Assembly (NCBI GenBank): GCA_049512815.1
Contig: JBEKWS010000012.1
Coordinates: 58,702-122,701, forward strand
Source: Bacteroidales bacterium
Lineage (GTDB): Bacteria; Bacteroidota; Bacteroidia; Bacteroidales; VadinHA17
Direction: 5' to 3'
Length of the DNA stretch: 64,000 bases
Position numbers and translations under genes: made by a program
Shown here: positions 22,631 through 64,000 of the stretch, in pieces
Layout of the letters: every line of letters begins with the position of its first letter
Position numbering within the stretch: the first letter of the stretch is position 1
The notes under the pieces: model-generated
Databases searched by the model: none
The model's input: the letters and a program-made list of their open reading frames with translations, nothing else
Told to the model about the DNA's origin: nothing

Positions 22631-22702
<72 letters not shown>

Positions 22703-49271: not shown

Positions 49272-49334
49272 AAATATAACTTGCCTTTATTAAAACTTCA
49301 AAAAAACTGATTGTGAGTAGTTTATATTTGTATT

Positions 49335-50573: not shown

Positions 50574-50593
50574 CTGGTGTAAACCTCTTATTA

Positions 50594-51046
50594 TTATTTA
50601 ATTGTCAAAATAACTCTAGTAGATTTTATCTGTTCAAAATTGAAAGAAACATCCTTCAATTCTTTTGTTCTTCCCTTAACTTTTATTTCAGCCTCAAGTT
50701 CAAATCCCCCAGCCGTAACATTCTTAAGTTTCCCTGCAAATTTTGATCCTTCATTGTCAACAACCTCAACTTTTTTTCCTTCATTTTTGAAATATTGTTC
50801 AATAACTCCAAAAGAAGCATCCAGCCCAGGTGAGGATACCTGCAATTCAAAATCCTCTTTATCACGGTCGAGACCTTTATCAATATGCCGGTGTATTGCA
50901 GCACACTCATCTATTGTTATACCTTCATTTTTATCGGCAAGTACAGTGATCCGGTTCGAACTGCTTACTTTTACAGCAACCAGAAAAAGTCCGGTTCCAT
51001 TTATGAACTCTTCGACTAATCCCTGTATTTTATGTTTTTCAATCAT
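50594..51046 (-). CDS. rimP: Ribosome maturation factor RimP
   Basis: 150 aa. LEVSSPGLD-type motif present as LQVSSPGLD. Conserved position upstream of nusA. Confidence 0.9.
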   Translation of the reverse strand: MIEKHKIQGLVEEFINGTGLFLVAVKVSSSNRITVLADKNEGITIDECAAIHRHIDKGLDRDKEDFELQVSSPGLDASFGVIEQYFKNEGKKVEVVDNEGSKFAGKLKNVTAGGFELEAEIKVKGRTKELKDVSFNFEQIKSTRVILTIK

Positions 51047-51172: not shown

Positions 51173-52222
51173 ATGCTTGTGGTTCAAATACGTAGCTTGA
51201 AAATCAGGAAACATTTCGATCTTTGCATACGGCTTAAAACTAACCGGGAACAGATCTATTTTTCAGTGAGCACTGTGAAACAAGCGGATATATATGACAG
51301 AAATGGCAGGTTAATTCTTGAGAATTGTACGTTATGTCCAAGGGAGTGCCGGGTAAACAGGTTTGAAGGGGGAACCGGATATTGCAGAACGGATGCAGGT
51401 TTGAATATTGCATCTATCTGTATCCACAGGGGCGAAGAGCCTGTCATAAGCGGGACAAATGGTATTTGTAATATCTTTTTTACAGGATGTAATCTTCATT
51501 GTATTTATTGTCAGAATCATGAAATCAGCCAACCCGGATCGGTAATCCGAAGTACTGAAATGGAACTGGAACCAGTCCTGGATCAAATAGTGCAAATACT
51601 ATCGAAAGGCATACCGGCTGTTGGTTTTGTTTCTCCTTCTCATGTAGTACCACAGGTAAAGGCAATAATAAAAGGGCTTAACAGCCGGGGCCTCAGGCCA
51701 ATAACAGTATACAATACAAATAGTTATGATAAACCTGAAACCATCCGCAGTCTTTCCGGATTGATTGATGTATATCTGCCCGATTATAAATATGTTACCC
51801 GGGAAATTGCATCAGAGTATTCAGATGCTTCAGATTACCCGGTATTAGCACAGAAAGCAATTAAAGAAATGTACTATCAAAAAGGGTCAACTCTCTCGAT
51901 AAATGATAACGATTTGGCAGAAAATGGCCTTCTTGTAAGACATCTTGTTTTACCAGGTCATGTCCAGGAAAGCATAAGTGTTTTACGTTCATTAGCTGAA
52001 GAATTGTCGCCGGGTGTTCATCTTTCAATCATGTCACAATACCATCCTACAACACAGGTTAGAAATCATTCAGTGCTTAACCGTCCGATTTACAAAGCAG
52101 AATATGAGGCTGTTATTGAGGCTATGGAAGATCTGGGCTTCAGAAATGGATGGGTTCAGGATATTGAGAGCAATCTGAGCTACAGACCTGATTTCAGTAA
52201 GGAAAATCCATTTGAATATTAG
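51173..52222 (+). CDS. Radical SAM protein, PflX-like (putative activating enzyme, COG1313-type)
   Basis: N-terminal Cys cluster CTLCPRECRVNR...GYC. Radical SAM cluster CNLHCIYCQN. The true start may be downstream of 51173 (a GTG at ~51266 precedes the conserved region). Confidence 0.65.
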   Translation: MLVVQIRSLKIRKHFDLCIRLKTNREQIYFSVSTVKQADIYDRNGRLILENCTLCPRECRVNRFEGGTGYCRTDAGLNIASICIHRGEEPVISGTNGICNIFFTGCNLHCIYCQNHEISQPGSVIRSTEMELEPVLDQIVQILSKGIPAVGFVSPSHVVPQVKAIIKGLNSRGLRPITVYNTNSYDKPETIRSLSGLIDVYLPDYKYVTREIASEYSDASDYPVLAQKAIKEMYYQKGSTLSINDNDLAENGLLVRHLVLPGHVQESISVLRSLAEELSPGVHLSIMSQYHPTTQVRNHSVLNRPIYKAEYEAVIEAMEDLGFRNGWVQDIESNLSYRPDFSKENPFEY

Positions 52223-52229
52223 CAAAAAA

Positions 52230-52245
52230 TTGGGCTAAAGCCCAA
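52230..52245 (-). terminator. Intrinsic terminator closing the efflux operon
   Basis: Minus strand reads TTGGGC-TTTA-GCCCAA followed by TTTTTTGCT. No T-run on the plus-strand side. Confidence 0.5.
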
Positions 52246-52269: not shown

Positions 52270-52986
52270 TTACATAAATTTTTCCCGCTTCTGAAGATTG
52301 TAAAGAGCCACAAGTAAAAAAATGATAGATCCGGTAATCAGGACTATACGGTTTTTAAAAATAATAATTGCCCATGTTGTCTCATTTATATCAAGTGGCA
52401 TGTTAAATGGATTAAGGAACACGTTCCATTGGCTTTTATTCAATGACTCACTTAGAATCAGAAATATCAGCCCGAATGCTATCATGACAACAGCTGTTCC
52501 ATTTCCATTTCTGATAATAGTAGAAAGCATAAAAGCCATTACTCCAAGAAAAATAACAGGCAACATTACCTGCAATGTCATATTTGCAATACGGAATTTA
52601 ACAATAAAAAAAGAAGATAATAATGTAAAAACAAGCATGATGAGGGAAGCAATAATAAATATGAGTACAATTCTTACGAGCCAGACTTTGTACCTGTAGT
52701 TAGGTATTCCAAATAATATTTCAATAGTTCGGGCATCCTGATCATTCTGAATTCCAAAAACAGAAGGATAAAAGACTAAAAGGACCCCTGAGAAAAGAAA
52801 AATTCCATACAGATCCCCCATTTTTGAAACGTCATTTGAGAACACATAAATTATTGAAAGTCCGATATAGAACAAAACTGATCCGGCAAGAAACCAGATG
52901 AACTTATTTGCAAAGATGATCCGTAAATTATAGATGATCATTTTATAAATAAGGATGTAATTATTATATAATCTTGTGCCTTTCAT
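52270..52986 (-). CDS. ABC-2-type transporter permease (six hydrophobic segments)
   Basis: 238 aa and highly hydrophobic, with ~6 predicted helices. Begins 24 nt after the stop of the gene carrying the ABC ATPase domain. An alternative Met lies 15 codons in. Confidence 0.55.
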   Translation of the reverse strand: MKGTRLYNNYILIYKMIIYNLRIIFANKFIWFLAGSVLFYIGLSIIYVFSNDVSKMGDLYGIFLFSGVLLVFYPSVFGIQNDQDARTIEILFGIPNYRYKVWLVRIVLIFIIASLIMLVFTLLSSFFIVKFRIANMTLQVMLPVIFLGVMAFMLSTIIRNGNGTAVVMIAFGLIFLILSESLNKSQWNVFLNPFNMPLDINETTWAIIIFKNRIVLITGSIIFLLVALYNLQKREKFM

Positions 52987-53010: not shown

Positions 53011-56000
53011 CTAAGAGGTTGTTCTGTCTTTTTTTCTGAGAAGCCACAAATAAGCGTCCTCAAGATTTGGAGTCACACTAATTGCATCCTGATGGGGCTT
53101 ATCTTCAGAAATACATCTTACTCTGACTTTTTCTCCTTCGGACATATGATGTACAACCAGTTGACTCTCAATAAAACCAGCAAAGTCCTGGGTAGGAATA
53201 TTGAATTGCCATACATGTCCTTCCGCTTCTTTTGTCATATCAATAGGTTTACCCAGATACATCAGAAGCCCCTTATTAAGCACAGCAACCTGGTAGCAGG
53301 AGCTCGAAACATCTTCAATAATGTGGGTAGAGAATATAACCACCCTGTCACGACTAAGTTCTACAAGAAGATTTCTGAACCTGATCCTTTCTCTGGGATC
53401 GAGACCGGCTGTTGGTTCATCAACAACCAGTATACGAGGCAGGTGAAGCAATATTTGTGCTATTCCCATTCTTTGCTTCATTCCACCTGAATATGAACTT
53501 ATTTTTTCATGTCTGCGGTCTTCCAGATGAACAGCTTTAAGGACATAGGTGACTCTATCCTCCCGTGTCTTAACATCAATAATATTCTTAAGCATAGCCT
53601 GGTAGTGAAGATATTCATGGGCTGTCATGTTCTCATAACTTCCAAACTCCTGGGGAAGGTATCCGATGAGTCCCTGCAGCTCTTCTCTCTTGTTTTGAGT
53701 ATCCATTCCATTTATCCAGACTTTACCGTAACTCTGCTCAAGGATACCGCATATAATTCGCATAAGGGTCGTTTTGCCTGCACCGTTTGGTCCAAGAAGG
53801 CCGAACATGCCGTTACCGATATTCAATGAGACACAACTTAAAGCTTTGAAAGGCTTCTTCTTTCTGCCTATCAATGGTATTGCGGCAACTATCTTATAGA
53901 AATTCTTACGGATATTTTTAAACCTGCCTGCGAGGCGATAGATGTCTATATTCTCAGAACTCATTTTAATTCCTGTCTTGTAAATTATAAGGCCGGAAAA
54001 CCAGAGGACTCCCAGTATAAGCACAATTACTATATTATGCCACCTTATCTGAAAGAGATAAATATTGCCCAATGGTATGAGCCAGAATATCAGTCCATCA
54101 AGAATTTTCAGGATCCTGGTATATATTTTCTTTCTTCCTGATGATGCAAAATTTGTCAGTAATTTTTTGAAAGGGATCCAGATACCAAGAAGAGAAAACC
54201 AGATACATATACTGAAGACAAAAATCCAGAAGCCGCTTTTCAGATAAAAATATGTAAAATAGATAACAAACCCTATTAATGGAAGTTGCCAGGTCAGATG
54301 GTTCATATCACTCCATGATGTGTAGTTTTTTGCAAGACCCAGCCTTTCCCTGATTTTAGCACCACCATTCCATTCTCTCAGAAGATGGCTGTCCCTATCA
54401 TATATTTTAACAAGACTCTGAACATAAATATTTATAGGTTCATCAGGAGATATTACAGTCTCTCTTGCCTTCCTCAGGGTATTGATAAAGAACCAGGTAC
54501 CTGCAGGTACAAGGATTAAGGAGAGTATTGTTGTGATTAATTTCCAGAGAAATTGATCAATAAAACTATATATCAAAAGTATAAGTAAAGCAAATATTGT
54601 GATTTGGATAATCTTTGTTTTCCAATTGAGTGAGTAGATCCATTGAAGAGAATTTTCGAGACCAGAATAAAAGGTCGGAATAAATATGAGTGTTAGCATT
54701 GTACTCAGAGTCAGGCCTCCGATGACAGTAATTGCAAATGCAGCACCGATGGAAGCGACAAATTCAGACTTTCCCAAAGCCAGTGGGAAAAGGGCTATTA
54801 CAGTTGTTGATGCAGTGATCAGAATAGGTCTGACCCGTGCAATGCCAGCAGTCATTAAAGCGCGTGAGCGTCTGTAGCCTCTCTTCCTTAAAATATTGGT
54901 GTAATCGATAAGGAGAATCCCATTGTTTACAACCACACCGAGAAGTATAAGGAATCCGATAAGTGTATTGGCATTAAGGAGAGAATTGTTTGTAAGAATA
55001 AGTGCAATAAGCGAGCCCAATGCTGCAAGTGGTATACTGAACATCAGAACCACCGGGGTTGAAAGTGATTCAAAAACCGATGCAAGGATCATATAAATAA
55101 GAAGGAATGCCATTCCGATAAGCCAATAGAAATCTTTTAACGGGTCCTCTTCATGAACGACTTCCACAGCTATTCCTGAAGGTATATTGATACCTGAAAC
55201 TATTGCTTCAATTTCGGCTCTTGCACCTTCCAGCAGATCTTTTGAGCTTATTATATCTGAATTGAAGCTATATGTGACTGTAATCTTTTTTTCCCGGTTT
55301 TCCCTGTGGATGTTACCCATACCGGATGAGAATACAATATTTGATAACTCCTGTATTTCCATTAAATTGGAATTGCTTCCTGTCACCTCGAGGTTTTTAA
55401 GATCATCAATTGTCTTGTCCGTGTTTACCTTGACCTTCCCAGATTCATCAGCATATTTCAGTGTTATATCGTATGTTTCGGTCCCCTGTAAAAAAGTTGC
55501 ACCTGAAGAATATTCTTTCCCAAAGGTGGAAAGCGCTGAAGATATATTGTCCAGAGTGAAATTATTACGTCCAATATAATCCATATCAAACTTTAAATGT
55601 ACTTCAGGGGTATTGTCCTGAACATTAACATTCACACTGCTAATTGTTGACAGATTTTGAATGGCTGCCTTAATGTCATCTGAAATGTTTTTCATCTGGT
55701 CGAAATTCTGCCCTTTTATAATGACACTTTCGGTGGTTGTTCCAATACCCAGAAGGTTCATAAAGTTTGCACCGGGATTTACCGCTCCGGCTCCTCCGGC
55801 TGCTCCGGTATAGCCCCCACCGGAAGAAATCTCATCCATTTCGATTTCTCCTGTCCTAAGGTTTCTGACTTTTTCAAGAATATCATTTTTAATTTCCGGA
55901 AGGGACCTTTTGCTTATCTTATCCCATTTTTCAGCAAGGTTTATAGTCATTGTTGCATCAGTTTCCTCCACCCTGCTTACTATATCTCCTTTTTCCGGTA

Positions 56001-57756
56001 TTCCGCTAAGAGCATGTTCAATTTCGGTAACAAAGGCGTCTGTCTTTTCAAGCGTTGATCCGGAAGGCATTGTAACAGAAAGTCTGAAACTTGAAGTCTC
56101 AACTTCCTTTGTTGAAGATACACTTAAACTAAGACTGATAAGAAGTGCAGCAAAGAACACTACGAGTGTTCCTATTATAGTACCTGCCGGATTCCTCATA
56201 CTGGCTTTTAGGGTGAGATAATACCCCTGAATGAGCCGGTTATGTATTGAAAGCTTTTTAAATATTCCCAAATCCGATACCTTCGCCAATTTAAGAATAA
56301 AATGTGCTGCCATCGGGATAAGAAGCAGAGCAACGGATAATGAAATGATCAGGGTTGAGACAATTGAAACACCTATATTCTTGCCGATAATTTTGATCAT
56401 GAAGTTGTCGGAGAAAAGAAAGGGAAGGAAAACGGTTATAGTCGTTAAAGTTGCCGCAACGATTGATCTCCATACCTCACTCGTTCCCTGCTTAACAGCT
56501 GTATCTATATCCACACCCTGGCTGACAAGACGGTAAATATTCTCCAGGACAACCACCGAATTATCCACAAGCATACCAATGGCAAGAGCCATTCCAACAA
56601 GTGTCAGACTGTTTATTGAGATATTATATGCATAAAAAAAGTTAAAAGCTGCATAAACCGAGATAGGAATTGAAAGTGCAATTATAAAAACCAGGCGGAT
56701 ATTACGTAAAAAGAACCATAATATAAGTACCGCGAGTAAACCTCCGATGACAGCCAGATGAATTATCTGGTTTAAGTTGTTCTCCATAATTTCGGCATTA
56801 TTGTTCTGAACAACTATTTCAACACCTTCGGATTTCAGATTATCATTCAGCGTCTTAACCACATCAAGTGTTTTGTGTGAAAGATCGATCAAGTTGACCT
56901 GATTATCGTTTACCAGAGTAATTGTCACTGCATCAAGCCCATCGACCCTGCTGTATGAGGTCTGCTCTTTAACCCCAAAAATAATGTCGGCAATGTCTTT
57001 CAGGGTTACGGAACCGTTTGGTTTCACAATAATATTCCCGATGTCTTTAACATCAGTATATTCAGATGTCACATTTACAAAAAATTTATTGGTTCCCTCT
57101 TTCACCGATCCGACAAAAGTTTTATCCTTGCCATTATTGTTCAGAAGGTTCGTGACCTGTGCCATGGTTATCCCGTAAGCTTTGCATGCTTTTTCATTTA
57201 GCCTGACCTCAATAGATTTTTGCTGACCTCCATAAATCTGAACACCCGCTATACCAGTAATATTCTGAAGTTCAGGTGATATTTCTTTATCCGTTATGTT
57301 GCGGATCCTGTCTATTCCTCCTTCACCTCTGATCTGTAATTCCATGAACTGGCTGGTAATCTGTGTGAGATCAATTTTTACCACGGTAATTTTGAACACA
57401 ACCGGCAGAGTTGCCTTAACTGAATTTATCTTTTCCTGTAGTTTCAGGTTGGCATATTTCATATTGGCTCTCTGATTGTAATAAAGGATTATCGTCCCGG
57501 AGCGGGAATTAATGTTTGATTCAATCTTTTCAATGCCTTCAAGAGTACCAATTGCACCTTCTAGTGGAACTATTGCCTTGCTTTCAATATAATTCGGATC
57601 CAGCTCAAGAGATGTCGTAACCTGAACAATGAGAGTAGGAAGCTGAGAATTAGGAAAAAGTTCTATCGGGAGTCTCTTATAGGAAACATAGCCAAGCAAT
57701 GTAAGCCCGATAAAGAACATACAAATCAGCACTTTTCTCTTAATAATGAAATTCAT
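53011..57756 (-). CDS. RND efflux permease fused to six extra TM helices and a C-terminal ABC ATP-binding domain
   Basis: Uninterrupted 1581-codon ORF. aa 1-~1040 are RND (GMLVDNSVVVLENI, GVVVNNGILLIDY, 12 TM layout). aa ~1041-1300 carry six hydrophobic segments. aa ~1300-1581 are an ABC NBD (Walker A GPNGAGKT at 53770-53793, Q-loop YLPQE, signature YSGGMKQR, Walker B ILVVDEPTAGLD, H-loop FSTHII). Confidence 0.85.
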   Translation of the reverse strand: MNFIIKRKVLICMFFIGLTLLGYVSYKRLPIELFPNSQLPTLIVQVTTSLELDPNYIESKAIVPLEGAIGTLEGIEKIESNINSRSGTIILYYNQRANMKYANLKLQEKINSVKATLPVVFKITVVKIDLTQITSQFMELQIRGEGGIDRIRNITDKEISPELQNITGIAGVQIYGGQQKSIEVRLNEKACKAYGITMAQVTNLLNNNGKDKTFVGSVKEGTNKFFVNVTSEYTDVKDIGNIIVKPNGSVTLKDIADIIFGVKEQTSYSRVDGLDAVTITLVNDNQVNLIDLSHKTLDVVKTLNDNLKSEGVEIVVQNNNAEIMENNLNQIIHLAVIGGLLAVLILWFFLRNIRLVFIIALSIPISVYAAFNFFYAYNISINSLTLVGMALAIGMLVDNSVVVLENIYRLVSQGVDIDTAVKQGTSEVWRSIVAATLTTITVFLPFLFSDNFMIKIIGKNIGVSIVSTLIISLSVALLLIPMAAHFILKLAKVSDLGIFKKLSIHNRLIQGYYLTLKASMRNPAGTIIGTLVVFFAALLISLSLSVSSTKEVETSSFRLSVTMPSGSTLEKTDAFVTEIEHALSGIPEKGDIVSRVEETDATMTINLAEKWDKISKRSLPEIKNDILEKVRNLRTGEIEMDEISSGGGYTGAAGGAGAVNPGANFMNLLGIGTTTESVIIKGQNFDQMKNISDDIKAAIQNLSTISSVNVNVQDNTPEVHLKFDMDYIGRNNFTLDNISSALSTFGKEYSSGATFLQGTETYDITLKYADESGKVKVNTDKTIDDLKNLEVTGSNSNLMEIQELSNIVFSSGMGNIHRENREKKITVTYSFNSDIISSKDLLEGARAEIEAIVSGINIPSGIAVEVVHEEDPLKDFYWLIGMAFLLIYMILASVFESLSTPVVLMFSIPLAALGSLIALILTNNSLLNANTLIGFLILLGVVVNNGILLIDYTNILRKRGYRRSRALMTAGIARVRPILITASTTVIALFPLALGKSEFVASIGAAFAITVIGGLTLSTMLTLIFIPTFYSGLENSLQWIYSLNWKTKIIQITIFALLILLIYSFIDQFLWKLITTILSLILVPAGTWFFINTLRKARETVISPDEPINIYVQSLVKIYDRDSHLLREWNGGAKIRERLGLAKNYTSWSDMNHLTWQLPLIGFVIYFTYFYLKSGFWIFVFSICIWFSLLGIWIPFKKLLTNFASSGRKKIYTRILKILDGLIFWLIPLGNIYLFQIRWHNIVIVLILGVLWFSGLIIYKTGIKMSSENIDIYRLAGRFKNIRKNFYKIVAAIPLIGRKKKPFKALSCVSLNIGNGMFGLLGPNGAGKTTLMRIICGILEQSYGKVWINGMDTQNKREELQGLIGYLPQEFGSYENMTAHEYLHYQAMLKNIIDVKTREDRVTYVLKAVHLEDRRHEKISSYSGGMKQRMGIAQILLHLPRILVVDEPTAGLDPRERIRFRNLLVELSRDRVVIFSTHIIEDVSSSCYQVAVLNKGLLMYLGKPIDMTKEAEGHVWQFNIPTQDFAGFIESQLVVHHMSEGEKVRVRCISEDKPHQDAISVTPNLEDAYLWLLRKKDRTTS

Positions 57757-57792: not shown

Positions 57793-60700
57793 TCATTCAC
57801 TGGTTTTTTTTCTTGTGATTAAATCAGTGAAGGAATCAAAAACCCAATATACACAGGGTATCACTATCAGAGTGAGGATAGTTGATGTAACCAGTCCGCC
57901 AATCACTGCAAGCGCCATTGGAGATCTGAGTGATGCACTTTCTCCGATACCGATTGTAAGTGGTAGAAGCGCAAATATTGTTGTGAGACTTGTCATTAAG
58001 ATAGGTCTGATTCTCTGCGATCCTGCTGTTATTATTGAGTCTTTTTTGTTTAATCCGGTCTGACGCAGCTGATTAATGCGGTCAATAAGAATAATTGCAT
58101 TACTTACAGCAATTCCTCCAAGCATTATAATGCCTATATATGCCATCATATTGAGGCTTTTTCCCAGCACGAAGAATGTCAGAATAGTACCGACAGCAGC
58201 AAGTGGTATTGTCAATAAAATAACAAAAGGTTGAATTATTGACTCAAATTCAGCTGCCAGTACCATAAATACCAAAATAATTGACAGAATCAAAGCGAAT
58301 GTCAGATTAGACATTGATTCTTTTCTCATCAATTCCTCACCTGTTATTTGAATTCTATAGTTAGCCGGTAATGGAACTGAACTCAACATTTCTCTGGCAT
58401 CTTTAATGACCTTATCAAAAGGCTTTGATTTATTAACCATGGCGTATATATAGCTTGTCCTGCTCTGATCCTGCCGGGTAATTTCTCTGGGAGATATAAC
58501 TTTTTTAATTGTGGCTAATGAACTCAATGGTACTTTTACTGATCCTGCAGTTATAAGGAGATCTTCAAGCTGATGCAGGGAAAGATCTCCGAGCTTAATA
58601 ACAATATCTTTCTCTTCGCCTTCCTTTTCCATCGTGCCTGCAGAAGCTCCGGAGAGATAACTTTGTATCTGGCTTATTACACTGGTTACAGAAACATTAT
58701 AATAACTGGTCTTAAACCTGTCAACCGCTACCTCTATTTCGGGGGTTCCCTCATCAAGGGAAGTTGTAATATTATATAGACCTCTGTTATTCTGAAGCAC
58801 CGTTTTTGATTCATTAATTATCTTTTCGATTTCTGTATAGTCTTGCCCTTTTACTTCAACAACAAATGGGGCTTCGCTGGTACCCAAAGTAGTCTGCAGT
58901 TCTGATTCTTCCTGGGAAAAGCTTATCTCAAGATCAGGAATGGTTTTAAGGTATTTCTCAACTGTTCTGATAGCTTCTTCCGTCACAGATGAATATTCAT
59001 TTTTAAGAAATATTTTAATATTTGCAACATTCTCATTTGTGGAAGTTGCCGATTGAGTAGTTGTTGTATTTATATCCCCGCCTGCCTGGCTGTAAATCAT
59101 TCTTATTTTGTTACCAAGAAGTTCATTGACAGTTCCTTCTATTTCCTTGATTGTGCTTTGAGTACGTTCAAGATTTGTCCCTTCCGGAAGTTTCAATCCA
59201 ATAGTAAATTCGGATGAAGCTGATTTTGGCATATATTCACTTCCAAGTTTTGGTATGAGAAGTACTGCTAATCCCATAAACAGAATGGAAAGGATGATTA
59301 CAATCAATCTCTTTTCGATGATTTTTGAAAGAAACTTTGGATACCATCTGAATTGCATCGGGCTGCTTAGCTGAACATTCTGGCTTTTCTTTTCACGAAA
59401 AAGGGTGTTTACCAGCATTGGGATGACGAGCATTGCAACAAATAAAGATGAGATCAGGGCAAAAGCCACCGTCCAGGCCTGGTCCTTGAACATTTCACCG
59501 GAAGCTCCCCTGAGATAAACAATTGGCAGGAAGACAACTATAGTCGTTATTGTAGAAGCTGTGATGGCTCCTCCGACCTGTCCGGTACCAACGATTGCCG
59601 CCTCGCGTAATGACATTCCTTCATCTCTGTTTCTGGTAATATTTTCGAGTACGACAATCGCATCATCGACCAGCCTGCCGGCCCCGAGTGCCAGCCCTCC
59701 CAAAGTCATAATATTTAATGTCAGGTGATTAAAATACATAAGGTTGAAGGTTGCTATTATAGAAATAGGTATGGCAACACTGACCACCATCGTTGTTCCT
59801 ATCCTTCGAAGAAAAACATACAGAACAATCATTGCAAGGGAAATGCCGATAAGCCCGGAATTTTTTACCTCTTTGATGGCATTGTCAATGTATTTTCCCT
59901 GATCCTTTACAACTATGAATTCATATCCGGGAAGAGCTTTTGCAAGAGTGCCAAAAGCATTATTAAGGTTCTTAACGGCTTCAACGGTGTTAAATTTGGG
60001 TTCTTTGTAAATTGACAGACCTATACAGCGTTCTCCATTAAGAGTGATAATATTTTGAGGATCTTTGTTTTCATATTTTATGGTTGCGACATCGCGAAGA
60101 TATACAGGAACTTTATCTGTTGAAGAAGTTGCGGTTGTGCTTCCGGTTGTTGTTACTGTCTGGGAGGAAGCCTGTTTGAAACCGATTACTATGTTCTCAA
60201 GATCTGTTAAATTACTCATTACACTTACCCCTTTGACTACATATTTAAGCCCCAGGTCAACTATAGAACCTCCGGATACATTCTTGTTATAATTTGCTAT
60301 CTGTACTGCAATTGCGTCTGAGGTCAATCCAAAAGATTCAAGTATATATTTATTGGTTTCAATTACAACCTGGCTCTCTTCCTGGCCAGTAAGTTTTACA
60401 TCTGCTATGCCTTCAATTCTGATAAGTTCGTTCCGGATATAGTTTTCTGCAATTTTCCTTAATTCATCCATGTCAGTAATTGCCTTATTCTTTAATCCCA
60501 CGATCATTACAGGTGAAGCATTAGGATCGTATTGGGAAATATCAAACTCTGTGAGATCTGAATTCTGGCTGAATGAGTTTAGTGCCTTCTGCAAGTCGAG
60601 AAAGGCCTCGTCCATATCTTTGTTCCAGTTATATTCAACCGTTATTTCTGCTGTACCAACCTGAGATACAGACGATACCTTGATGACATCACTCTGTCTC

Positions 60701-60918
60701 ATGCAGAGCGATTCTATCTGTTCAACATAGTTTTTTTCGATTTCTTCCGGTGGTTTTTCTCCGGCCGTGAGCTGAATATATATCTTCGGATTGTTCAGGT
60801 TTGGGAAGAGATCAGTTCCCAGTTTTCCAAGAGATATCACCCCAAGGAGGACTATACCGAGTACAAGCATTAAAACAGTAACCGGGTATTTTACAGCAAA
60901 TTGGGCAATCCTGTTCAT
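57793..60918 (-). CDS. RND efflux permease (AcrB/MdtB/C-like)
   Basis: 1041 aa. TM1 plus large periplasmic loops. TM4 GRLVDDAIVVLENITR. Second-half GIAVSNAIILIDRIN. Stop lies 36 nt before the next RND gene. Confidence 0.9.
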   Translation of the reverse strand: MNRIAQFAVKYPVTVLMLVLGIVLLGVISLGKLGTDLFPNLNNPKIYIQLTAGEKPPEEIEKNYVEQIESLCMRQSDVIKVSSVSQVGTAEITVEYNWNKDMDEAFLDLQKALNSFSQNSDLTEFDISQYDPNASPVMIVGLKNKAITDMDELRKIAENYIRNELIRIEGIADVKLTGQEESQVVIETNKYILESFGLTSDAIAVQIANYNKNVSGGSIVDLGLKYVVKGVSVMSNLTDLENIVIGFKQASSQTVTTTGSTTATSSTDKVPVYLRDVATIKYENKDPQNIITLNGERCIGLSIYKEPKFNTVEAVKNLNNAFGTLAKALPGYEFIVVKDQGKYIDNAIKEVKNSGLIGISLAMIVLYVFLRRIGTTMVVSVAIPISIIATFNLMYFNHLTLNIMTLGGLALGAGRLVDDAIVVLENITRNRDEGMSLREAAIVGTGQVGGAITASTITTIVVFLPIVYLRGASGEMFKDQAWTVAFALISSLFVAMLVIPMLVNTLFREKKSQNVQLSSPMQFRWYPKFLSKIIEKRLIVIILSILFMGLAVLLIPKLGSEYMPKSASSEFTIGLKLPEGTNLERTQSTIKEIEGTVNELLGNKIRMIYSQAGGDINTTTTQSATSTNENVANIKIFLKNEYSSVTEEAIRTVEKYLKTIPDLEISFSQEESELQTTLGTSEAPFVVEVKGQDYTEIEKIINESKTVLQNNRGLYNITTSLDEGTPEIEVAVDRFKTSYYNVSVTSVISQIQSYLSGASAGTMEKEGEEKDIVIKLGDLSLHQLEDLLITAGSVKVPLSSLATIKKVISPREITRQDQSRTSYIYAMVNKSKPFDKVIKDAREMLSSVPLPANYRIQITGEELMRKESMSNLTFALILSIILVFMVLAAEFESIIQPFVILLTIPLAAVGTILTFFVLGKSLNMMAYIGIIMLGGIAVSNAIILIDRINQLRQTGLNKKDSIITAGSQRIRPILMTSLTTIFALLPLTIGIGESASLRSPMALAVIGGLVTSTILTLIVIPCVYWVFDSFTDLITRKKTSE

Positions 60919-60923
60919 GATTT

Positions 60924-61979
60924 TTATTTAACTATTTTAACCTTTGACCTGGTGCTCAGCGTTTCAAAACCAACGGTTACAAAGCGTTCGTTCTTTGACA
61001 GACCTCCGGTTACTTCAACATCAGTCAGGTTCTCAATACCGGTCTTAATTATCCGTTCAGAAGCTAATCCCCCACGATCGATAACGAAGATAGTTTTACC
61101 TCTCTGCCGTGCCAGAATTATACTTTTAGGTATTACAATAACGGAGTCTTTATGGGTTATTACAATATCTGCTTTGACGAACATCCCCGGCAATAGTTGA
61201 TATTTTGGATTATGTATCAGTATTGTTCCGGGGAAAGTTCTTGTATCGGCATTTATCGCAGGTGATAGTTGGGTTACATTCCCGATTAAGGTGTCCTTTG
61301 GAATAGTATAATTTGTCAACTTGACTACCTCATCAGGTTTTATTACTGAGACATATTTCTCAGGTAACTGTACATTCATATACATCATCTGGTAATCCAT
61401 TATTTCGACCATATCTGAACCCGTATTAACCCTGGTCCCCTGAGTGTAATATGGTAACTCAACTATTACGCCGTCTATAGGAGCAATAATCCTGGTTTTT
61501 GCCATCGAAAGATTTGCACTTACCAGTGCCGACTTGGCATTCGCCCTATTGATTCCTGCTGTTTTAAGATCAAAAAGCGTAACACCTCCCTTTTCATATA
61601 ATGATTCCTGTTTTTTGAGCTCGCTCTCCGTGAGTTCGAGATTAAGCTGGGTGGTTTCAAGTTTTATATCATTGATATATTGCTGATCCTCCAATCTGGC
61701 AATCAGATCACCGGTTTTGACTTTATCATTTAACTGCCATGCTTTTCCTGTTCGTGGATTTTTTTCAAGAAAATAGTTTGCTGTGATTTCCGATTTTACC
61801 AGAATCTGACCTATCGGAAAAGCTGTTCCCGATGTATTAACATATTCTTCAATTGATTTTAGAGTGGCATCCTGTACAGAAACAGGAATTTCAACATCGG
61901 CATTAAGATTCTGATTCTTGTTATTGCAGCTGATAGCCGCAAAAGCCATAGCTATTATTATGAATAAACTTTTTTTCAT
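60924..61979 (-). CDS. Efflux periplasmic adaptor (membrane fusion protein, HlyD/RND-MFP family), lipoprotein
   Basis: Lipobox (FAAISC). Lipoyl/hairpin/beta-barrel order, with IIAPIDGVIVEL and LLPGMFVKADI motifs. 5-nt gap to the RND gene. Confidence 0.85.
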   Translation of the reverse strand: MKKSLFIIIAMAFAAISCNNKNQNLNADVEIPVSVQDATLKSIEEYVNTSGTAFPIGQILVKSEITANYFLEKNPRTGKAWQLNDKVKTGDLIARLEDQQYINDIKLETTQLNLELTESELKKQESLYEKGGVTLFDLKTAGINRANAKSALVSANLSMAKTRIIAPIDGVIVELPYYTQGTRVNTGSDMVEIMDYQMMYMNVQLPEKYVSVIKPDEVVKLTNYTIPKDTLIGNVTQLSPAINADTRTFPGTILIHNPKYQLLPGMFVKADIVITHKDSVIVIPKSIILARQRGKTIFVIDRGGLASERIIKTGIENLTDVEVTGGLSKNERFVTVGFETLSTRSKVKIVK

Positions 61980-61992
61980 ATGTTATTTATTT

Positions 61993-63486
61993 TTAATATT
62001 TTAATGTCTTCACAGGGATAACAGGTTGTTTCTTCTCAAAATCGTAAAGTGTCAGTATTTTTAAATTCAGTAGTTCGAGTTTATATGATATTAAAGAATT
62101 TGTGTAATTGAGCTTGTTTTGAGAGAGCTGGTTCTCATAAATACTCAGATCCATTCCCGTCAGGTCCCCGTTTTTATACTTTTCAAGGTTTAAGTCGTAA
62201 GTTAGTTGCGCATTATTGACCGACTGACGTGCGATTACTATCTGATTTATGAGATTTTTAAGATTTCTGTAACTCTGTCTTATAGCTAAGATTATACTGT
62301 TCTGTTCTACCCCGAGATCAATTTTATTTGACTCAATAGTTGCTTCACTTGCCTTTATTCTAGCTTTTTCTTCTCCCCAATCCCAGACAGGAATCTGAAA
62401 CGACAATGACACATTTTCATTATTTTTTGGGTCATTATAAATATCTTTTAAATATTTATTATTTCCATTATATCCAAATGAAAGGGCAAGGTTTCCATGG
62501 AATTCATTAAGTGCCTTAGTCTGAATAAGATTAAGCTGTGATGTTTCAATGTTTATCTGACTTTCTCTGATTTCCATCCTTGTCGCGAGCCCCTGATCAA
62601 TGGCAAATGCTATATCGATTTTAACAGTAGTATCAACCGTGATGTTTGGTATTACAATAATATCATCATACAGGCTCATACCTATCAGGTTTTTAAAAGC
62701 ATCCTTGGAATTTTCAAAAGCAACCTGCTTGTTTTCATAATCTGACCTGGTTGTTGCAAGGTTCAACTCTGCCTGAAATTTTTCTGACTGGGCTGAAATT
62801 CCGGCATCAGCTTTATTCTTTGTTATTTCATAACTTTTCATCATGTCCTGATAAGCCTGGTTTGAAATATCCATGCTTTGCTGCGCCTGATAAACCGCAT
62901 AAAATGCCTGGGAAACGCTTTGTTCCATTGTCAGATGTTGTATTGCATAGTTAAGCTGGGCAGTCTCAAGTTGCAACTGGAGCGTTTTAAGATTGAGCTT
63001 GGTATGGTTGTAAGTGAATAAAGGCTGATTTAACTGAATTGAAAGATCATTATTATAAGCTACCCCGGCAGTTGGGAATTTTGCATTATAGATGTTATTG
63101 GTATAACTAAAATTGTCACTCAGCGTAATAGTAGCATCAGTAGGTAAAAAAGGCTGGACAACTGTAAATGAACCGGAACTCTGCACATCCTTCGTAGTGT
63201 TAAAATCAGAAAAACTGCTATTGAACGCCCTATCCTGTGAATAAGTTAAAGGATTTACTGACAAAGCAAATTTTGATTTTAGTGCATCATTCTGGGCATT
63301 AAGGTTTTCCTGACTCCTGATAAGGCTAAGCCTTGTCTTTAATATAGTCGGACTATTTGATTCAGCTGTAGAGAGAGCCTGTTCCAGAGTAACTCCGGTC
63401 TGTGAGAATCCTTTGAATATCAATAGATTCATCAGTACGACTATTAAAAGGATAATTCGGTTTTTCCTGTTGAATTGTTTTTCCAT
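61993..63486 (-). CDS. TolC-family outer membrane efflux protein
   Basis: 497 aa. Signal peptide. Two repeated halves rich in coiled-coil heptads (LEQAL...AESNSPTIL, LNLATTRSDYENK...), typical of OMF proteins. 13-nt gap to the MFP gene. Confidence 0.85.
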   Translation of the reverse strand: MEKQFNRKNRIILLIVVLMNLLIFKGFSQTGVTLEQALSTAESNSPTILKTRLSLIRSQENLNAQNDALKSKFALSVNPLTYSQDRAFNSSFSDFNTTKDVQSSGSFTVVQPFLPTDATITLSDNFSYTNNIYNAKFPTAGVAYNNDLSIQLNQPLFTYNHTKLNLKTLQLQLETAQLNYAIQHLTMEQSVSQAFYAVYQAQQSMDISNQAYQDMMKSYEITKNKADAGISAQSEKFQAELNLATTRSDYENKQVAFENSKDAFKNLIGMSLYDDIIVIPNITVDTTVKIDIAFAIDQGLATRMEIRESQINIETSQLNLIQTKALNEFHGNLALSFGYNGNNKYLKDIYNDPKNNENVSLSFQIPVWDWGEEKARIKASEATIESNKIDLGVEQNSIILAIRQSYRNLKNLINQIVIARQSVNNAQLTYDLNLEKYKNGDLTGMDLSIYENQLSQNKLNYTNSLISYKLELLNLKILTLYDFEKKQPVIPVKTLKY

Positions 63487-63543: not shown

Positions 63544-63563
63544 GGACATGCCATGGCATGTCC
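63544..63563. promoter_or_regulatory. Perfect 20-bp palindrome upstream of the efflux operon (operator or terminator hairpin)
   Basis: GGACATGCCATGGCATGTCC equals its own reverse complement. It lies 58 nt upstream of the TolC-like ATG and 68 nt downstream of the preceding gene's stop. Confidence 0.4.
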
Positions 63564-63631: not shown

Positions 63632-64000
63632 TTACTTCTGTCTTATCCATTTTATGGCATCTCCAATAACGGCCCTTCCGGTTGAGAGATTTGAAAGAAC
63701 AACTTTCGCGGTGTCGGCTTTGAGGTAATAAGTGCCTAGTTTGTTCCATCCGTTCTCAGCATTTTCATATTCAAGAGATATCTCCTCACTTCCTCCATCA
63801 TGATAAATCCGATAGTGGAATTCTTTATATGGCTGGGAAGGCGGTCCGCCTCCTTCTCTTCCCTGGCCTCCGGCCCCACCTGGTCCCTGTGCTCCACCCG
63901 TTCTTGCACCTCCTCCGAAACCTCCTGCTCTGATCATCATCCGATCAGCAGTTTTACCTATAAAACAGAAAATATCGTAATAACCTGGTTTGTCGATAGA
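63632..64000 (-). CDS. C-terminal part of a larger protein. It ends in a golvesin-C-terminal-like domain (5' end outside the window)
   Basis: The minus-strand frame is open from nt 64000 (SIDKPGYYDIFCFIGKTADRMM...). The tail HYRIYHDGGSEEISLEYENAENGWNKLGTYYLKADTAKVVLSNLSTGRAVIGDAIKWI matches the pattern Y.i.h.gG....v.q....g.W..LG.y.f......V.LSN...G.V.aDAi.f. Confidence 0.45.
   Translation of the reverse strand, partial: SIDKPGYYDIFCFIGKTADRMMIRAGGFGGGARTGGAQGPGGAGGQGREGGGPPSQPYKEFHYRIYHDGGSEEISLEYENAENGWNKLGTYYLKADTAKVVLSNLSTGRAVIGDAIKWIRQK

What the first reader, a model, noticed from the sequence alone, without database searches (positions are those of the whole stretch)
53011..57756. One ORF fuses a complete RND permease to a complete ABC ATPase domain
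Seen in sequence: there is a single uninterrupted 1581-codon minus-strand ORF. Residues 1 to ~1040 have the full two-repeat RND layout (TM1, large loop, TM4 motif GMLVDNSVVVLENI, second repeat GVVVNNGILLIDY, last helix ...LIFIPTFYSGL). They are colinear with the stand-alone 1041-aa RND paralogue encoded just upstream. Residues ~1300-1510 carry every ABC NBD motif in the canonical order: Walker A GPNGAGKT (nt 53770-53793), Q-loop YLPQE, signature YSGGMKQR, Walker B/D-loop ILVVDEPTAGLD and H-loop FSTHII. Established knowledge: RND pumps are proton-motive-force antiporters, whereas ABC NBDs are ATP-driven motors. I know of no characterised transporter that carries both on one polypeptide. Inference: the product could be an efflux machine with dual energisation, an ATP-gated RND pump, or a scaffold that docks an ABC-2 exporter onto a tripartite RND assembly.
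Basis: partly seen in the sequence, partly recalled or inferred. Interest (0 to 1): 0.85.

Follow-up and report, generated by a model that had tools for sequence, protein, structure and literature searches.

The report
RND pump fused to ABC ATPase
A real gene, conserved across many species, joins a proton-driven RND efflux pump subunit to an ATP-driven ABC motor in one 176-kDa membrane protein; it sits in a seven-gene export cluster, no published study of it was found, and it could show how two energy sources are combined in one envelope-spanning machine.

Summary
Window 53011-57756 (-) is one uninterrupted 1581-codon ORF with a full-length RND match (aa 2-1031) and an intact ABC ATPase. It is not an assembly artefact. 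The same colinear 1565-1616-aa ORF occurs in 44 other species-level genomes, including six cultured isolates. The exact protein is recovered in several independent assemblies. The junction is not a simple end-to-end join: six extra predicted TM helices follow the RND part. The first beta-strand of the ATPase (aa 1108-1119) is separated from the rest of the ATPase by a four-helix membrane insertion. This linker occurs nowhere else among 1.84 billion representative proteins. The ATPase is NosF/DrrA/ABCA-like (type V, "ABC-2"). The downstream 238-aa protein is most likely its ABC-2 membrane partner. The conserved unit is seven genes and extends past the window edge: NBD1, a 1171-aa ABC-2 permease with a large extracytoplasmic part, OMF, MFP, RND-A, RND-B::NBD2, and the 238-aa permease. 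Best reading: an ABC-2 exporter covalently tethered to a probably heteromeric tripartite RND pump, for coupled two-step export. Substrate and stoichiometry are unknown. No publication describing it was found. Databases name it only automatically.

The parts
63632..64000 (-). 3' end of a gene that runs off the window edge. It is the C-terminus (Golvesin_C domain) of a ~1171-aa protein with an N-terminal ABC-2-type membrane domain and a large extracytoplasmic part ('TMD1/big'). Its partner ATPase gene (NBD1, 297 aa) lies beyond the window.
   Evidence: The frame is open to position 64000. The sequence is 83% identical to the C-terminus of L081:4858-8463. The source contig shows NBD1 (L085:5429-6322) and the 1171-aa gene (L085:6340-9855) directly upstream of the OMF gene. 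A homologous C-terminus lies upstream of the OMF (in Latescibacterota, of the MFP) gene in nearly all related loci. The L066 orthologue hits Pfam ABC2_membrane_2 above its cut-off.
61993..63486 (-). Outer-membrane factor (TolC-like), 497 aa
   Evidence: Pfam OEP E 4.9e-41. NCBIfam TolC-family hit E 5.8e-30, below its cut-off. Present in this position in nearly all related loci; no match in the Latescibacterota loci.
60924..61979 (-). Periplasmic adaptor (membrane fusion protein), 351 aa
   Evidence: NCBIfam RND_mfp 170.8 bits, above its cut-off of 94.9. Pfam HlyD_D23. Conserved position.
57793..60918 (-). RND-A, a stand-alone RND permease of 1041 aa and the ancient paralogue of the fused RND
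   Evidence: ACR_tran E 1e-211. 25% identical and colinear with the fusion's RND part. Orthologues are 39-77% identical in the full-length matches, while remaining only 25-29% identical to the fused RND.
53011..57756 (-). RND-B::NBD2 fusion gene, 1581 aa, 176.4 kDa
54652..57756 (-). RND moiety (aa 1-1035): 12 TM helices with two large periplasmic loops. The TM4 Asp is D398.
   Evidence: ACR_tran aa 2-1031. D398 is invariant in 44 orthologues. The best PDB sequence match is MdtB, 9lyq_B.
54463..54624 (-). TM13-TM14 hairpin (aa 1045-1098), which returns the chain to the cytoplasm
   Evidence: Hydropathy peaks at aa 1049-1067 and 1076-1094. AF2 helices at model residues 46-66 and 70-99, i.e. aa 1045-1065 and 1069-1098.
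54394..54435 (-). First beta-strand of the ATPase (aa 1108-1121, INIYVQSLVKIY), separated from the rest of the NBD
   Evidence: AF2 strand at model residues 111-122. The sequence matches the N-terminal strand KIEIQNLNQIY of the stand-alone NBD1. L/V/K/Y/R residues in and just after this strand are invariant in alignment A1.
53956..54288 (-). Four-helix membrane insertion (TM15-18, aa 1157-1267) inside the ATPase's beta1-beta2 hairpin
   Evidence: AF2 helices at model residues 158-172, 176-205, 210-240 and 243-268. Hydropathy and the K/R-rich flanking loops are consistent with cytoplasmic ends.
53227..53871 (-). ATPase core (aa 1296-1510) with Walker A K1328, Q-loop, signature, Walker B E1447 and H-loop H1478
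   Evidence: Pfam ABC_tran. All motifs are invariant in 18 and in 74 aligned relatives. Coordinates.
53014..53226 (-). C-terminal beta-rich domain of the ATPase (aa 1511-1581), as in TM_1403, NosF and the ABCA R-domains
   Evidence: AF2 strands and helices at model residues 516-575. The best Foldseek hits are 4yer, 7osf/7o0y (NosF) and ABCA7/4/3. It is also shared with NBD1.
52270..52986 (-). 238-aa protein with six hydrophobic segments, the probable ABC-2 (type V) membrane domain partner of NBD2 ('TMD2')
   Evidence: Six hydrophobic segments. Always immediately downstream of the fusion wherever downstream sequence is available. Weak Pfam ABC2_membrane_2/3/4 hits. All top 50 Foldseek hits of a low-confidence model are type V ABC membrane domains, NosY first. 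hhalign against the N-terminal membrane domain of the 1171-aa protein gives 83% probability, E 8.5e-6, over 215 columns.
52230..52245 (-). Terminator-like hairpin followed by a T-run, 25 nt after the stop of the 238-aa gene; probable operon end
   Evidence: This is a consensus scan only.

Best explanation
The ORF encodes a genuine, ancient, selectively maintained chimera. One protomer type of a tripartite RND efflux pump (RND-B) is covalently tethered, through six extra transmembrane helices, to the ATPase (NBD2) of an ABC-2/type V ABC transporter. The membrane domain of that transporter is the 238-aa protein encoded next.

The chimera is one part of a conserved seven-gene cluster: NBD1, TMD1 (1171 aa, with a large extracytoplasmic region), OMF, MFP, RND-A, RND-B::NBD2, TMD2.

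Proposed mechanism (inferred): the ATP-driven ABC module takes a still unknown, probably amphipathic or membrane-associated substrate out of the cytoplasm or inner leaflet and delivers it to the periplasmic side. There the proton-driven RND/MFP/OMF conduit, held next to it by the tether, expels it across the outer membrane. This would be the known functional synergy between inner-membrane exporters and periplasm-capturing RND pumps, hard-wired into one complex.

The 3-fold (RND) versus 2-fold (ABC) symmetry clash is most simply resolved in one way. The RND trimer would be heteromeric, like MdtB2C, with one RND-B per trimer. NBD2/TMD2 would then pair with the paralogous NBD1/TMD1 as a heterodimeric ABC transporter. 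This sub-hypothesis is inference only.

What is shown: domain content, intactness and conservation of both motors, the topology pattern, gene-cluster conservation, and the paralogy of the two NBDs and the two TMDs. What is inferred: physical assembly, direction of transport, substrate hand-over and stoichiometry.
For: The gene is real and conserved. 44 other species-level genomes have uninterrupted 1565-1616-aa ORFs colinear over RND, linker and NBD. They include the isolates Draconibacterium mangrovi, Parabacteroides massiliensis, Bacteroides sp. 224, Marivirga sericea, Marivirga tractuosa and Maribellus maritimus, plus Calditrichaceae and Latescibacterota MAGs. The exact protein appears in independent assemblies. 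Apparent split genes in relatives are caused by N-gaps or frameshifts upstream of the junction.

Both motors are intact. The TM4 Asp is invariant. Walker A, Q-loop, signature, Walker B and H-loop are invariant.

The ABC module is type V. The best NCBIfam NBD hits are GldA and DrrA. The best PDB sequence hits are ABCA3/ABCA4. The best structural hits are TM_1403, NosF and ABCA. The 238-aa protein has six hydrophobic segments. It gives Foldseek hits only to type V membrane domains, NosY first. It is homologous to the N-terminal membrane domain of the 1171-aa protein, whose orthologue scores above Pfam's ABC2_membrane_2 threshold.

Topology is self-consistent. There are 12+2+4 TM helices, so beta1 and the NBD are both cytoplasmic, and the cytoplasmic loops are K/R-rich.

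The linker is found only in this architecture: 97 hits among 1.84 billion representatives, and every hit of 1550-1585 aa that spans the linker carries it at about residues 1027-1295.

The cluster is conserved: OMF-MFP-RND-A-fusion-TMD2 in essentially all loci, the TMD1 C-terminus immediately upstream of the cassette in nearly all loci, and NBD1-TMD1 adjacency in six genomes. NBD1 and NBD2 are 42% identical over 277 aa, including the C-terminal domain.

Against: No experiment or structure shows that the parts assemble. The AF2 model of the 238-aa protein has low confidence (pLDDT 55.6), its Foldseek E-values are weak (at best 5e-3), and its own sequence matches no Pfam family.

NBD1 is no closer to NBD2 than stand-alone NBDs from Chloroflexi are (43-47% in both cases). 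NBD1 plus TMD1-like pairs also occur without any RND cassette in Flavobacteriales. NBD1/TMD1 may therefore be a self-sufficient homodimeric transporter, which would leave the symmetry mismatch unsolved.

NosFY, the closest structural relative, is (from my own knowledge) a mechanotransducer rather than a substrate exporter, so a transport role is not guaranteed.

The AcrB-type relay partners D408 and K940 are replaced (N399 and Asn in TM10), although the same holds for the unfused paralogue subfamily. The substrate is unknown, and no riboswitch or regulator gives a hint.
Confidence: 0.5

Rival explanations
1. ATP-coupled RND pump (mechanotransmission). ATP binding and hydrolysis by NBD2, dimerised with NBD1 or with another NBD2, is transmitted through the six-helix tether and/or TMD2 into the RND-B transmembrane domain or into periplasmic partners. 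It would gate or drive the RND conformational cycle, or the periplasmic domain of the 1171-aa protein. The ABC module would then be an engine, not a separate substrate translocator.
For: The NBD is attached through two membrane anchors on either side of its first strand, a rigid-looking arrangement rather than a floppy linker. The closest structural relatives include NosFY, and mechanotransducing ABC systems of other types are well known (MacB, LolCDE, FtsEX; review PMC8277102). The RND subfamily lacks the AcrB D408/K940 pair. The linker has invariant Trp, Pro, Phe and Arg residues, which implies specific contacts.
Against: The invariant TM4 Asp, and the same DN/NN pattern in the unfused paralogue, argue that the RND keeps its usual proton coupling. 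A dedicated ABC-2-like membrane domain is always encoded next to the NBD, as expected for an ordinary ABC transporter. The TM helices of the linker are the least conserved part of the protein (31-37% mean identity against 75% for the NBD).
Confidence: 0.15
2. Co-localisation or co-expression only. Two functionally independent transporters, an ABC-2 exporter and an RND pump, happen to be fused. The fusion would guarantee equal expression or a shared membrane location without substrate hand-over or energetic coupling.
For: Both modules look self-sufficient, and each has stand-alone relatives. Gene fusions of operon neighbours are common (general knowledge).
Against: The fusion has been kept over very large distances: RND identity falls to 30-33% in Latescibacterota. 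No natural split at the junction was seen. The family-specific six-helix linker, with the NBD's first strand threaded between two helix bundles, is far more elaborate than a chance read-through fusion.
Confidence: 0.15
3. Regulatory or sensing module. The tethered ABC unit senses substrate flux or envelope stress, as Bce-type ABC transporters do, or controls assembly and disassembly of the tripartite pump, rather than contributing to transport.
For: ABC-2 relatives include lantibiotic-protection transporters (NCBIfam hit TIGR03740, E 8.8e-41, below cut-off). The C-terminal domain of the NBD resembles the regulatory domains of TM_1403, NosF and ABCA.
Against: No kinase or regulator gene is conserved in the cluster. 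Catalytic motifs are fully canonical in both NBDs.
Confidence: 0.08
4. Artefact: an assembly chimera, or a missed frameshift or stop that falsely joins an RND gene to an ABC gene.
For: The window comes from a short-read metagenome assembly. Several database relatives are called as split genes.
Against: 44 other genomes, including isolates and a complete chromosome, keep one ORF. There are independent assemblies of the identical protein. The split calls trace to N-gaps or indels inside the RND part, not at the junction. Base composition is uniform across the junction.
Confidence: 0.01

Closest known systems
MdtABC / MuxABC-OpmB type tripartite pumps with two RND paralogues (MdtB2C heterotrimer)
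   Same: Two tandem, anciently diverged RND genes (25% identity) share one MFP gene and one OMF gene in a single operon. MdtB is the best PDB sequence match for the fused RND. MdtB/MdtC models are among the NCBIfam hits.
   Different: One paralogue carries six extra TM helices and an ABC ATPase. Scores are far below the MdtB/MdtC equivalog cut-offs (257 against 1584 and 1774 bits). TM4 reads 'DN' and TM10 'NN' instead of AcrB-type DD and K. Heterotrimer formation is untested.
NosFY(D) and other type V ('ABC-2') ABC systems (DrrAB, GldAFG, ABCA/ABCG)
   Same: The NBD has the same fold, including a C-terminal beta-rich domain. Its partner has six hydrophobic segments, and NosY then ABCG/ABCA are its best structural matches. 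JGI names some orthologues after the NosY-type COG.
   Different: The NBD is membrane-anchored and covalently joined to an RND permease. Its first strand is separated from the rest by a 4-TM insertion. The cluster has no NosD, NosL or NosZ. All equivalog scores are below threshold.
MacAB-TolC (ABC-driven tripartite efflux pump)
   Same: An ABC ATPase, an MFP and a TolC-like OMF are encoded together, so ATP-powered export through an MFP/OMF duct has a precedent (review PMC8277102).
   Different: MacB is a type VII ABC transporter with four TM helices and its own periplasmic domain, and it replaces the RND. Here a complete RND pair is present and the ABC module is type V. No FtsX or MacB_PCD domains were detected.
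Functional synergy between single-component inner-membrane exporters and RND tripartite pumps
   Same: [quoted passage not shown]
   Different: In known cases the two pumps are separate, unlinked proteins. Here they would be physically fused and co-inherited in a single cluster.
ABC-2 permease / M1-aminopeptidase-like fusion proteins with a partner NBD (Flavobacteriales and others; uncharacterised)
   Same: The cluster's first two genes (NBD1 plus the 1171-aa protein) belong to this kind. The N-terminal part is ABC-2-like, a weak Peptidase_M1 signal appears in orthologues, and the length is about 1200 aa.
   Different: In Flavobacteriales the pair stands alone without the RND cassette. Here the protein ends in a Golvesin_C domain and always precedes the OMF-MFP-RND-RND::NBD-TMD cassette.

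Membership tests
RND superfamily (Pfam ACR_tran / AcrB-like) | Full-length two-repeat, 12-TM architecture with two large periplasmic loops | tested here: met
   ACR_tran aa 2-1031 covers profile positions 3-1018 of 1021, E 6.5e-160. The hydropathy pattern agrees.
RND superfamily (Pfam ACR_tran / AcrB-like) | Conserved acidic residue in TM4 (AcrB D407 equivalent) for proton coupling | tested here: met
   D398 is invariant in 44 orthologues.
RND superfamily (Pfam ACR_tran / AcrB-like) | AcrB-type relay partners D408 and K940 | tested here: not met
   N399 and Asn in TM10 (GVVVNNG). Most orthologues of the unfused paralogue show the same pattern, so it is a subfamily trait and not specific to the fusion. 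R971 and T978 equivalents are present (RVRPILIT).
RND superfamily (Pfam ACR_tran / AcrB-like) | Curated NCBIfam multidrug RND subfamily score (RND_permease_2, cut-off 1250 bits) | tested here: not met
   440 bits. No NCBIfam RND model reaches its cut-off.
Tripartite RND efflux system | Encoded together with a periplasmic adaptor (MFP) and an outer-membrane factor | tested here: met
   The MFP scores above the RND_mfp cut-off, and an OEP/TolC-like gene is directly upstream. Both are conserved in related loci.
ABC ATPase (Pfam ABC_tran) | Walker A, Q-loop, ABC signature, Walker B with catalytic Glu, D-loop and H-loop in canonical order | tested here: met
   All are present and invariant in 18 and in 74 aligned relatives. 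ABC_tran scores 100.5 bits against a cut-off of 25.
ABC ATPase (Pfam ABC_tran) | Forms a nucleotide-sandwich dimer with a second NBD | not testable with these tools
   Candidate partners are a second NBD2 or the paralogous NBD1 (42% identity). No multimer prediction or experiment was available.
Type V / ABC-2 exporters (DrrAB, GldAF, NosFY, ABCA/G) | NBD belongs to the DrrA/GldA/NosF/ABCA sequence-structure group | tested here: met
   The best NCBIfam NBD hits are GldA at 7.8e-51 and DrrA at 1.8e-46, both below their cut-offs. PDB sequence hits are ABCA3/ABCA4. Foldseek hits are TM_1403, NosF and ABCA.
Type V / ABC-2 exporters (DrrAB, GldAF, NosFY, ABCA/G) | Partner membrane domain with six TM helices and the ABC-2 fold | tested here: inconclusive
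   Six hydrophobic segments. The window protein itself has no Pfam hit. Weak ABC2_membrane hits occur in a few of 18 orthologues. The AF2 model has low confidence (pLDDT 55.6), yet all its top 50 Foldseek hits are type V membrane domains. hhalign gives 83% probability to the membrane domain of the 1171-aa protein, whose orthologue passes Pfam ABC2_membrane_2.
MdtBC/MuxBC heteromultimeric RND | Two RND paralogue genes in one operon with a single MFP | tested here: met
MdtBC/MuxBC heteromultimeric RND | Orthology to MdtB/MdtC (NCBIfam equivalog cut-offs) | tested here: not met
   257 bits against cut-offs of 1584 and 1774.
MdtBC/MuxBC heteromultimeric RND | The two paralogues assemble into one heterotrimer | not testable with these tools
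   This is inference from gene arrangement only.
MacAB-TolC type ABC tripartite pump | MacB/FtsX-type membrane domain (four TM helices plus a periplasmic core domain) fused to the NBD | tested here: not met
   No FtsX or MacB_PCD hits in the fusion, the linker or the 238-aa protein. The linker matches no Pfam family.
NosDFY(L) system | A NosD periplasmic beta-helix partner and the nos gene context | tested here: not met
   No such genes in the window or in the 21-kb source locus.

The most novel reading that the evidence does not exclude
The chimera is a true hybrid engine. ATP hydrolysis by NBD2, paired with NBD1, would be mechanically transmitted through the family-specific six-helix tether and/or TMD2 into the RND-B protomer of a heteromeric RND trimer. 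The RND transport cycle would then be gated or driven by ATP in addition to, or instead of, the proton-motive force. That would be the first RND transporter with direct primary-active coupling.
Probability: 0.12. Interest if true: 0.95.

Novelty: new variant of a known kind. Interest (0 to 1): 0.72.

Why it matters
RND pumps (secondary, trimeric, periplasm-capturing) and ABC transporters (primary, dimeric) are textbook alternatives for energising envelope-spanning export. A conserved natural protein that welds the two together offers several things. It is a ready-made system for asking how substrates are handed from an inner-membrane exporter to an RND/MFP/OMF duct. It raises the question of how a 3-fold machine accommodates a 2-fold one. 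It allows a test of whether ATP and proton-motive force can be combined in one pump.

The family is common in environmental and gut-associated Bacteroidota. About 5,900 distinct clusters of the partner 238-aa permease exist in metagenomes. The family also occurs in cultured isolates, yet automated annotation labels it only 'efflux RND transporter permease subunit'. A whole class of export systems is therefore hidden in annotation. Its substrate (lipid, antimicrobial peptide, detergent-like compound or envelope component) is unknown and could matter for envelope biology or intrinsic resistance in this phylum.

Tried and rejected
1. Loss of proton coupling in the fused RND. I suspected that D408N and K940N (AcrB numbering) marked a proton-dead protomer driven by ATP. 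I rejected this as fusion-specific, because most orthologues of the unfused paralogue carry the same DN/NN(ND) pattern and the TM4 Asp is invariant.

2. Natural split versions as evolutionary intermediates. The 489-949-aa database hits and the 'separate' RND and 509/489-aa gene calls all trace to contig ends, N-gaps or frameshifts inside the RND part. None is a stop at the junction.

3. The six linker helices as a degenerate ABC-2 membrane domain. hhalign of the linker, or of its 4-TM part, against the 238-aa family and against the membrane domain of the 1171-aa protein gave probabilities below 1%. Pfam found nothing.

4. A link to lipid A synthesis. lpxD-lpxC/fabZ-lpxA lie divergently next to the cluster in the source contig, but only close relatives share this.

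5. Riboswitch or other RNA clues to the substrate. There are no Rfam hits in the operon or upstream of it.

6. Sigma-70 promoter scan. The count was not above shuffles, and this promoter type is probably not relevant to Bacteroidota.

The shallow alignment gave a low-confidence model.

8. Profile search of the 238-aa family against PDB sequences gave nothing meaningful.

9. Literature. InterPro, CDART and TCDB could not be queried.


Full report
**1. The observation**

Window 53011-57756 (minus strand) is a single 1581-codon ORF that starts with ATG and has no internal stop. Pfam places ACR_tran on aa 2-1031 (E 6.5e-160, essentially the whole profile) and ABC_tran on aa 1311-1450 (E 1.5e-28). 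The RND part is colinear with the stand-alone 1041-aa RND gene at 57793-60918, at 25% identity and E 1e-94. Base composition is even across the junction. The calculated mass is 176.4 kDa.

**2. The fusion is real**

A degenerate-pattern scan of one genome per species returned 80 loci. In 44 of them a stop-to-stop ORF of 1565-1616 aa is colinear with the window protein over RND, linker and NBD. These loci include:
- cultured isolates: Draconibacterium mangrovi, Parabacteroides massiliensis SN4, Bacteroides sp. 224, Marivirga sericea DSM 4125, a complete Marivirga tractuosa chromosome, and Maribellus maritimus;
- MAGs of Rikenellaceae, Bacteroidaceae, Marinilabiliales, Cytophagales and Calditrichaceae;
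- Latescibacterota MAGs, where identity falls to 30-33% in the RND part and 53-59% in the NBD.

The exact 1581-aa sequence is NCBI MGA2406916.1 ("efflux RND transporter permease subunit"). JGI calls cluster members "AcrB/ABC-type multidrug transport system ATPase subunit". The 90%-identity cluster has 120 members with several full-length copies on different contigs. An independent Logan assembly of another run carries the same genes.

Database hits that look like shorter or split genes have ordinary explanations. Some are contig-end fragments. Some come from long-read MAGs in which both RND genes are shattered by frameshifts. In two close relatives the causes are an N-gap and two indels inside TM11-12. 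In both of these the reading frame across the TM12-linker junction is continuous. The artefact explanation is therefore rejected.

**3. Anatomy of the junction**

The region between the RND part and the Walker A motif is not a spacer. Hydropathy and an AlphaFold2 model of aa 1000-1581 (mean pLDDT 75) give the following order:
- RND TM12;
- a two-helix hairpin (aa ~1045-1098);
- a beta-strand at aa 1108-1121;
- amphipathic helices;
- four long helices (aa ~1157-1267);
- the ATPase core;
- a C-terminal beta-rich domain running to aa 1581.

The strand INIYVQSLVKIY matches the N-terminal strand KIEIQNLNQIY of a stand-alone paralogue. The first strand of the ATPase is thus separated from the rest of the ATPase by an insertion of about 170 residues containing four TM helices.

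With 12+2+4 helices, both the strand and the ATPase lie in the cytoplasm, and the intervening cytoplasmic loops are K/R-rich. I could not inspect model coordinates, so the pairing of the split strand with the NBD sheet is inferred from sequence and secondary structure.

A search with the linker alone (aa 1036-1300) against 1.84 billion representative proteins found only 97 hits. Every hit of 1550-1585 aa that spans the linker carries it at about residues 1027-1295. The linker therefore exists only in this architecture. It matches no Pfam family and shows no profile similarity to ABC-2 membrane domains. It is the least conserved part of the protein (31-45% mean identity, against 53% for the RND part and 75% for the NBD core), but it has invariant Trp, Pro, Phe and Arg positions.

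**4. Both motors look functional**

The TM4 Asp (D398, equivalent to AcrB D407) is invariant in all 44 orthologues. AcrB's D408 and K940 are replaced by Asn. Most orthologues of the unfused paralogue show the same replacements, so this is a trait of the RND subfamily and not a sign that the fused protomer has lost proton coupling (the relay residues are as listed in PMC8277102).

Walker A, the Q-loop, the signature, Walker B with its catalytic Glu, the D-loop and the H-loop are invariant in 18 and in 74 aligned relatives.

**5. What kind of ABC module it is**

- The best NCBIfam NBD matches are GldA and DrrA, both below their cut-offs.
- The best PDB sequence matches for the NBD are ABCA3/ABCA4.
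- The best structural matches are TM_1403, NosF and ABCA7/4/3, including the C-terminal domain.

All of these are type V ("ABC-2") systems.

The 238-aa protein encoded 24 nt downstream has six hydrophobic segments. It lies immediately downstream of the fusion in every related locus that extends that far. It has about 5,900 relatives (90%-identity clusters) in the protein collection, some named by JGI after the NosY-type COG.

The window protein itself has no Pfam match, and a few of 18 orthologues give weak ABC2_membrane hits. Its AF2 model has low confidence (pLDDT 55.6). Nevertheless all top 50 Foldseek hits are type V ABC membrane domains: NosY first (TM-score 0.53-0.57, E 5e-3), then ABCG2/G1/G5/G8/G25, PmtCD and ABCA. 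I treat the fold assignment as likely but not proven.

**6. The cluster is larger than the window shows**

The ORF upstream of the OMF gene is open to the window edge. It is the C-terminus of a 1171-aa protein. In the source contig the same-strand cluster has seven genes:
1. NBD1 (297 aa);
2. the 1171-aa protein;
3. OMF;
4. MFP;
5. RND-A;
6. RND-B::NBD2;
7. the 238-aa protein.

A terminator-like hairpin follows the last gene.

The C-terminus of a homologue of the 1171-aa protein lies directly upstream of the OMF (in Latescibacterota, the MFP) gene in nearly all related loci. NBD1 is adjacent to the 1171-aa homologue in six genomes; the other loci do not reach far enough upstream.

An orthologue of the 1171-aa protein scores above Pfam's ABC2_membrane_2 threshold in its N-terminal part. 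Orthologues also show weak Peptidase_M1 signals and a C-terminal Golvesin_C domain.

NBD1 and NBD2 are 42% identical over 277 residues, including the C-terminal domain, and both have canonical motifs. The 238-aa family aligns with the N-terminal membrane domain of the 1171-aa family over 215 columns (hhalign probability 83%, E 8.5e-6). The cluster therefore encodes two paralogous NBD-TMD pairs, one at each end, flanking the OMF-MFP-RND-RND core.

In Flavobacteriales, pairs like NBD1 plus TMD1 occur without any RND cassette.

**7. Most likely mechanism**

*Shown:* a type V ABC module is covalently and conservatively tethered to one of two RND paralogues of a tripartite system, and both motors are intact.

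*Inferred:* the ABC module moves an unknown, probably amphipathic substrate from the cytoplasm or inner leaflet to the periplasmic side. The adjacent RND/MFP/OMF duct then expels it. This would be a hard-wired version of the known synergy between inner-membrane exporters and periplasm-capturing RND pumps (PMC8277102).

The trimer-versus-dimer mismatch has one economical solution. The RND trimer would be heteromeric as in MdtBC, with a single RND-B. NBD2/TMD2 would pair with NBD1/TMD1 as a heterodimeric ABC transporter. This is only one possibility. The alternatives are homodimeric NBD2/TMD2 built from two RND-B protomers, or from RND-B protomers of different trimers.

I give the tethered two-step export model a confidence of about 0.5.

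**8. Rivals**

- Direct ATP coupling of the RND cycle, or of periplasmic partners, by mechanotransmission: 0.15.
- Fusion for co-localisation only: 0.15.
- A sensing or assembly-control module: 0.08.
- Artefact: 0.01.

Evidence for and against each is given in the structured fields.

**9. Comparison with known systems and novelty**

The parts belong to known superfamilies: RND, MFP, OMF, and type V ABC. The combination is not covered by any curated model:
- no NCBIfam model reaches its cut-off for the fusion, the 238-aa protein or the 1171-aa protein;
- the linker and the window's own 238-aa and 1171-aa membrane domains match no Pfam family;
- no PDB chain covers both domains;
- seven successful full-text searches and two papers read, including a 2021 comprehensive review of tripartite systems and a transportome survey of seven Bacteroides species, found no mention of an RND-ABC fusion.

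The sequences have long been public under automated names, so this is a hidden, uncharacterised family and not a new sequence. I could not query InterPro, CDART or TCDB. I rate it a new variant of a known kind (tripartite efflux systems). There is a small chance (about 0.12) that it is a genuinely new energy-coupling principle.

**10. Verdict**

It needs three additions: the threaded six-helix tether, the second ABC pair beyond the window edge, and the likely heteromeric assembly. Interest is 0.72.

Noticed in passing
window 63632-64000 (-); source contig L085:5429-9855: The gene upstream of the OMF gene runs off the window edge. It encodes a 1171-aa protein with an ABC-2-like N-terminal membrane domain, poly-Gly stretches and a C-terminal Golvesin_C domain. 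A stand-alone ABC ATPase gene (NBD1) precedes it. Both are conserved with the cassette.
   Followed up: yes
window 55753-55827 (-), fusion aa 644-668: A Gly/Ser-rich low-complexity loop (SSGGGYTGAAGGAGAVNPGANFMNL) lies in the periplasmic part of the fused RND. Its composition, though not its sequence, is conserved in all 44 orthologues, and it is absent from the paralogue alignment. Its function is unknown.
   Followed up: partly
window 63544-63563: A perfect 20-nt palindrome, GGACATGCCATGGCATGTCC, lies in the 145-nt gap between the 1171-aa gene and the OMF gene. It could be an intercistronic hairpin, a processing site or an attenuation site.
   Followed up: no
window 57793-60918 (-), RND-A TM4 and TM10: The window's RND-A has TM4 'VDD' and TM10 'VSN'. 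Most orthologues have 'VDN' with 'VNN' or 'VND'. The presumed proton-relay residues therefore vary within one orthologous group.
   Followed up: partly
window 51173-52222 (+): A radical-SAM gene (349 aa; weak matches to glycyl-radical-enzyme activases) converges on the end of the operon. It occupies the same position in an independent assembly. No conserved link to the cassette was seen in other loci.
   Followed up: partly
L085:625-5228 (source contig, outside the window); also L071 and L081: lpxA, lpxC-fabZ, lpxD and an HD-domain gene are transcribed divergently from the start of the seven-gene cluster. Only close relatives share this neighbourhood.
   Followed up: yes
L074, L076, L077, L080 (Flavobacteriales and other Bacteroidota loci): A related ABC ATPase is followed by a ~1200-aa ORF (Peptidase_M1 confirmed in L077). 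The pair stands alone without OMF, MFP or RND genes. It appears to be an uncharacterised module in its own right.
   Followed up: partly
L001, L002, L043; L087, L088: In several public MAGs both RND genes are broken into 2-5 pieces by frameshifts or N-gaps. This produces many 'partial' or truncated database proteins of 480-950 aa that hide the full architecture.
   Followed up: yes
window 46269-51046 (-): An ordinary rimP-nusA-infB operon lies just downstream of the convergent radical-SAM gene. There is also a tRNA gene at 22631-22702. Both are housekeeping context, consistent with a chromosomal Bacteroidales origin.
   Followed up: no
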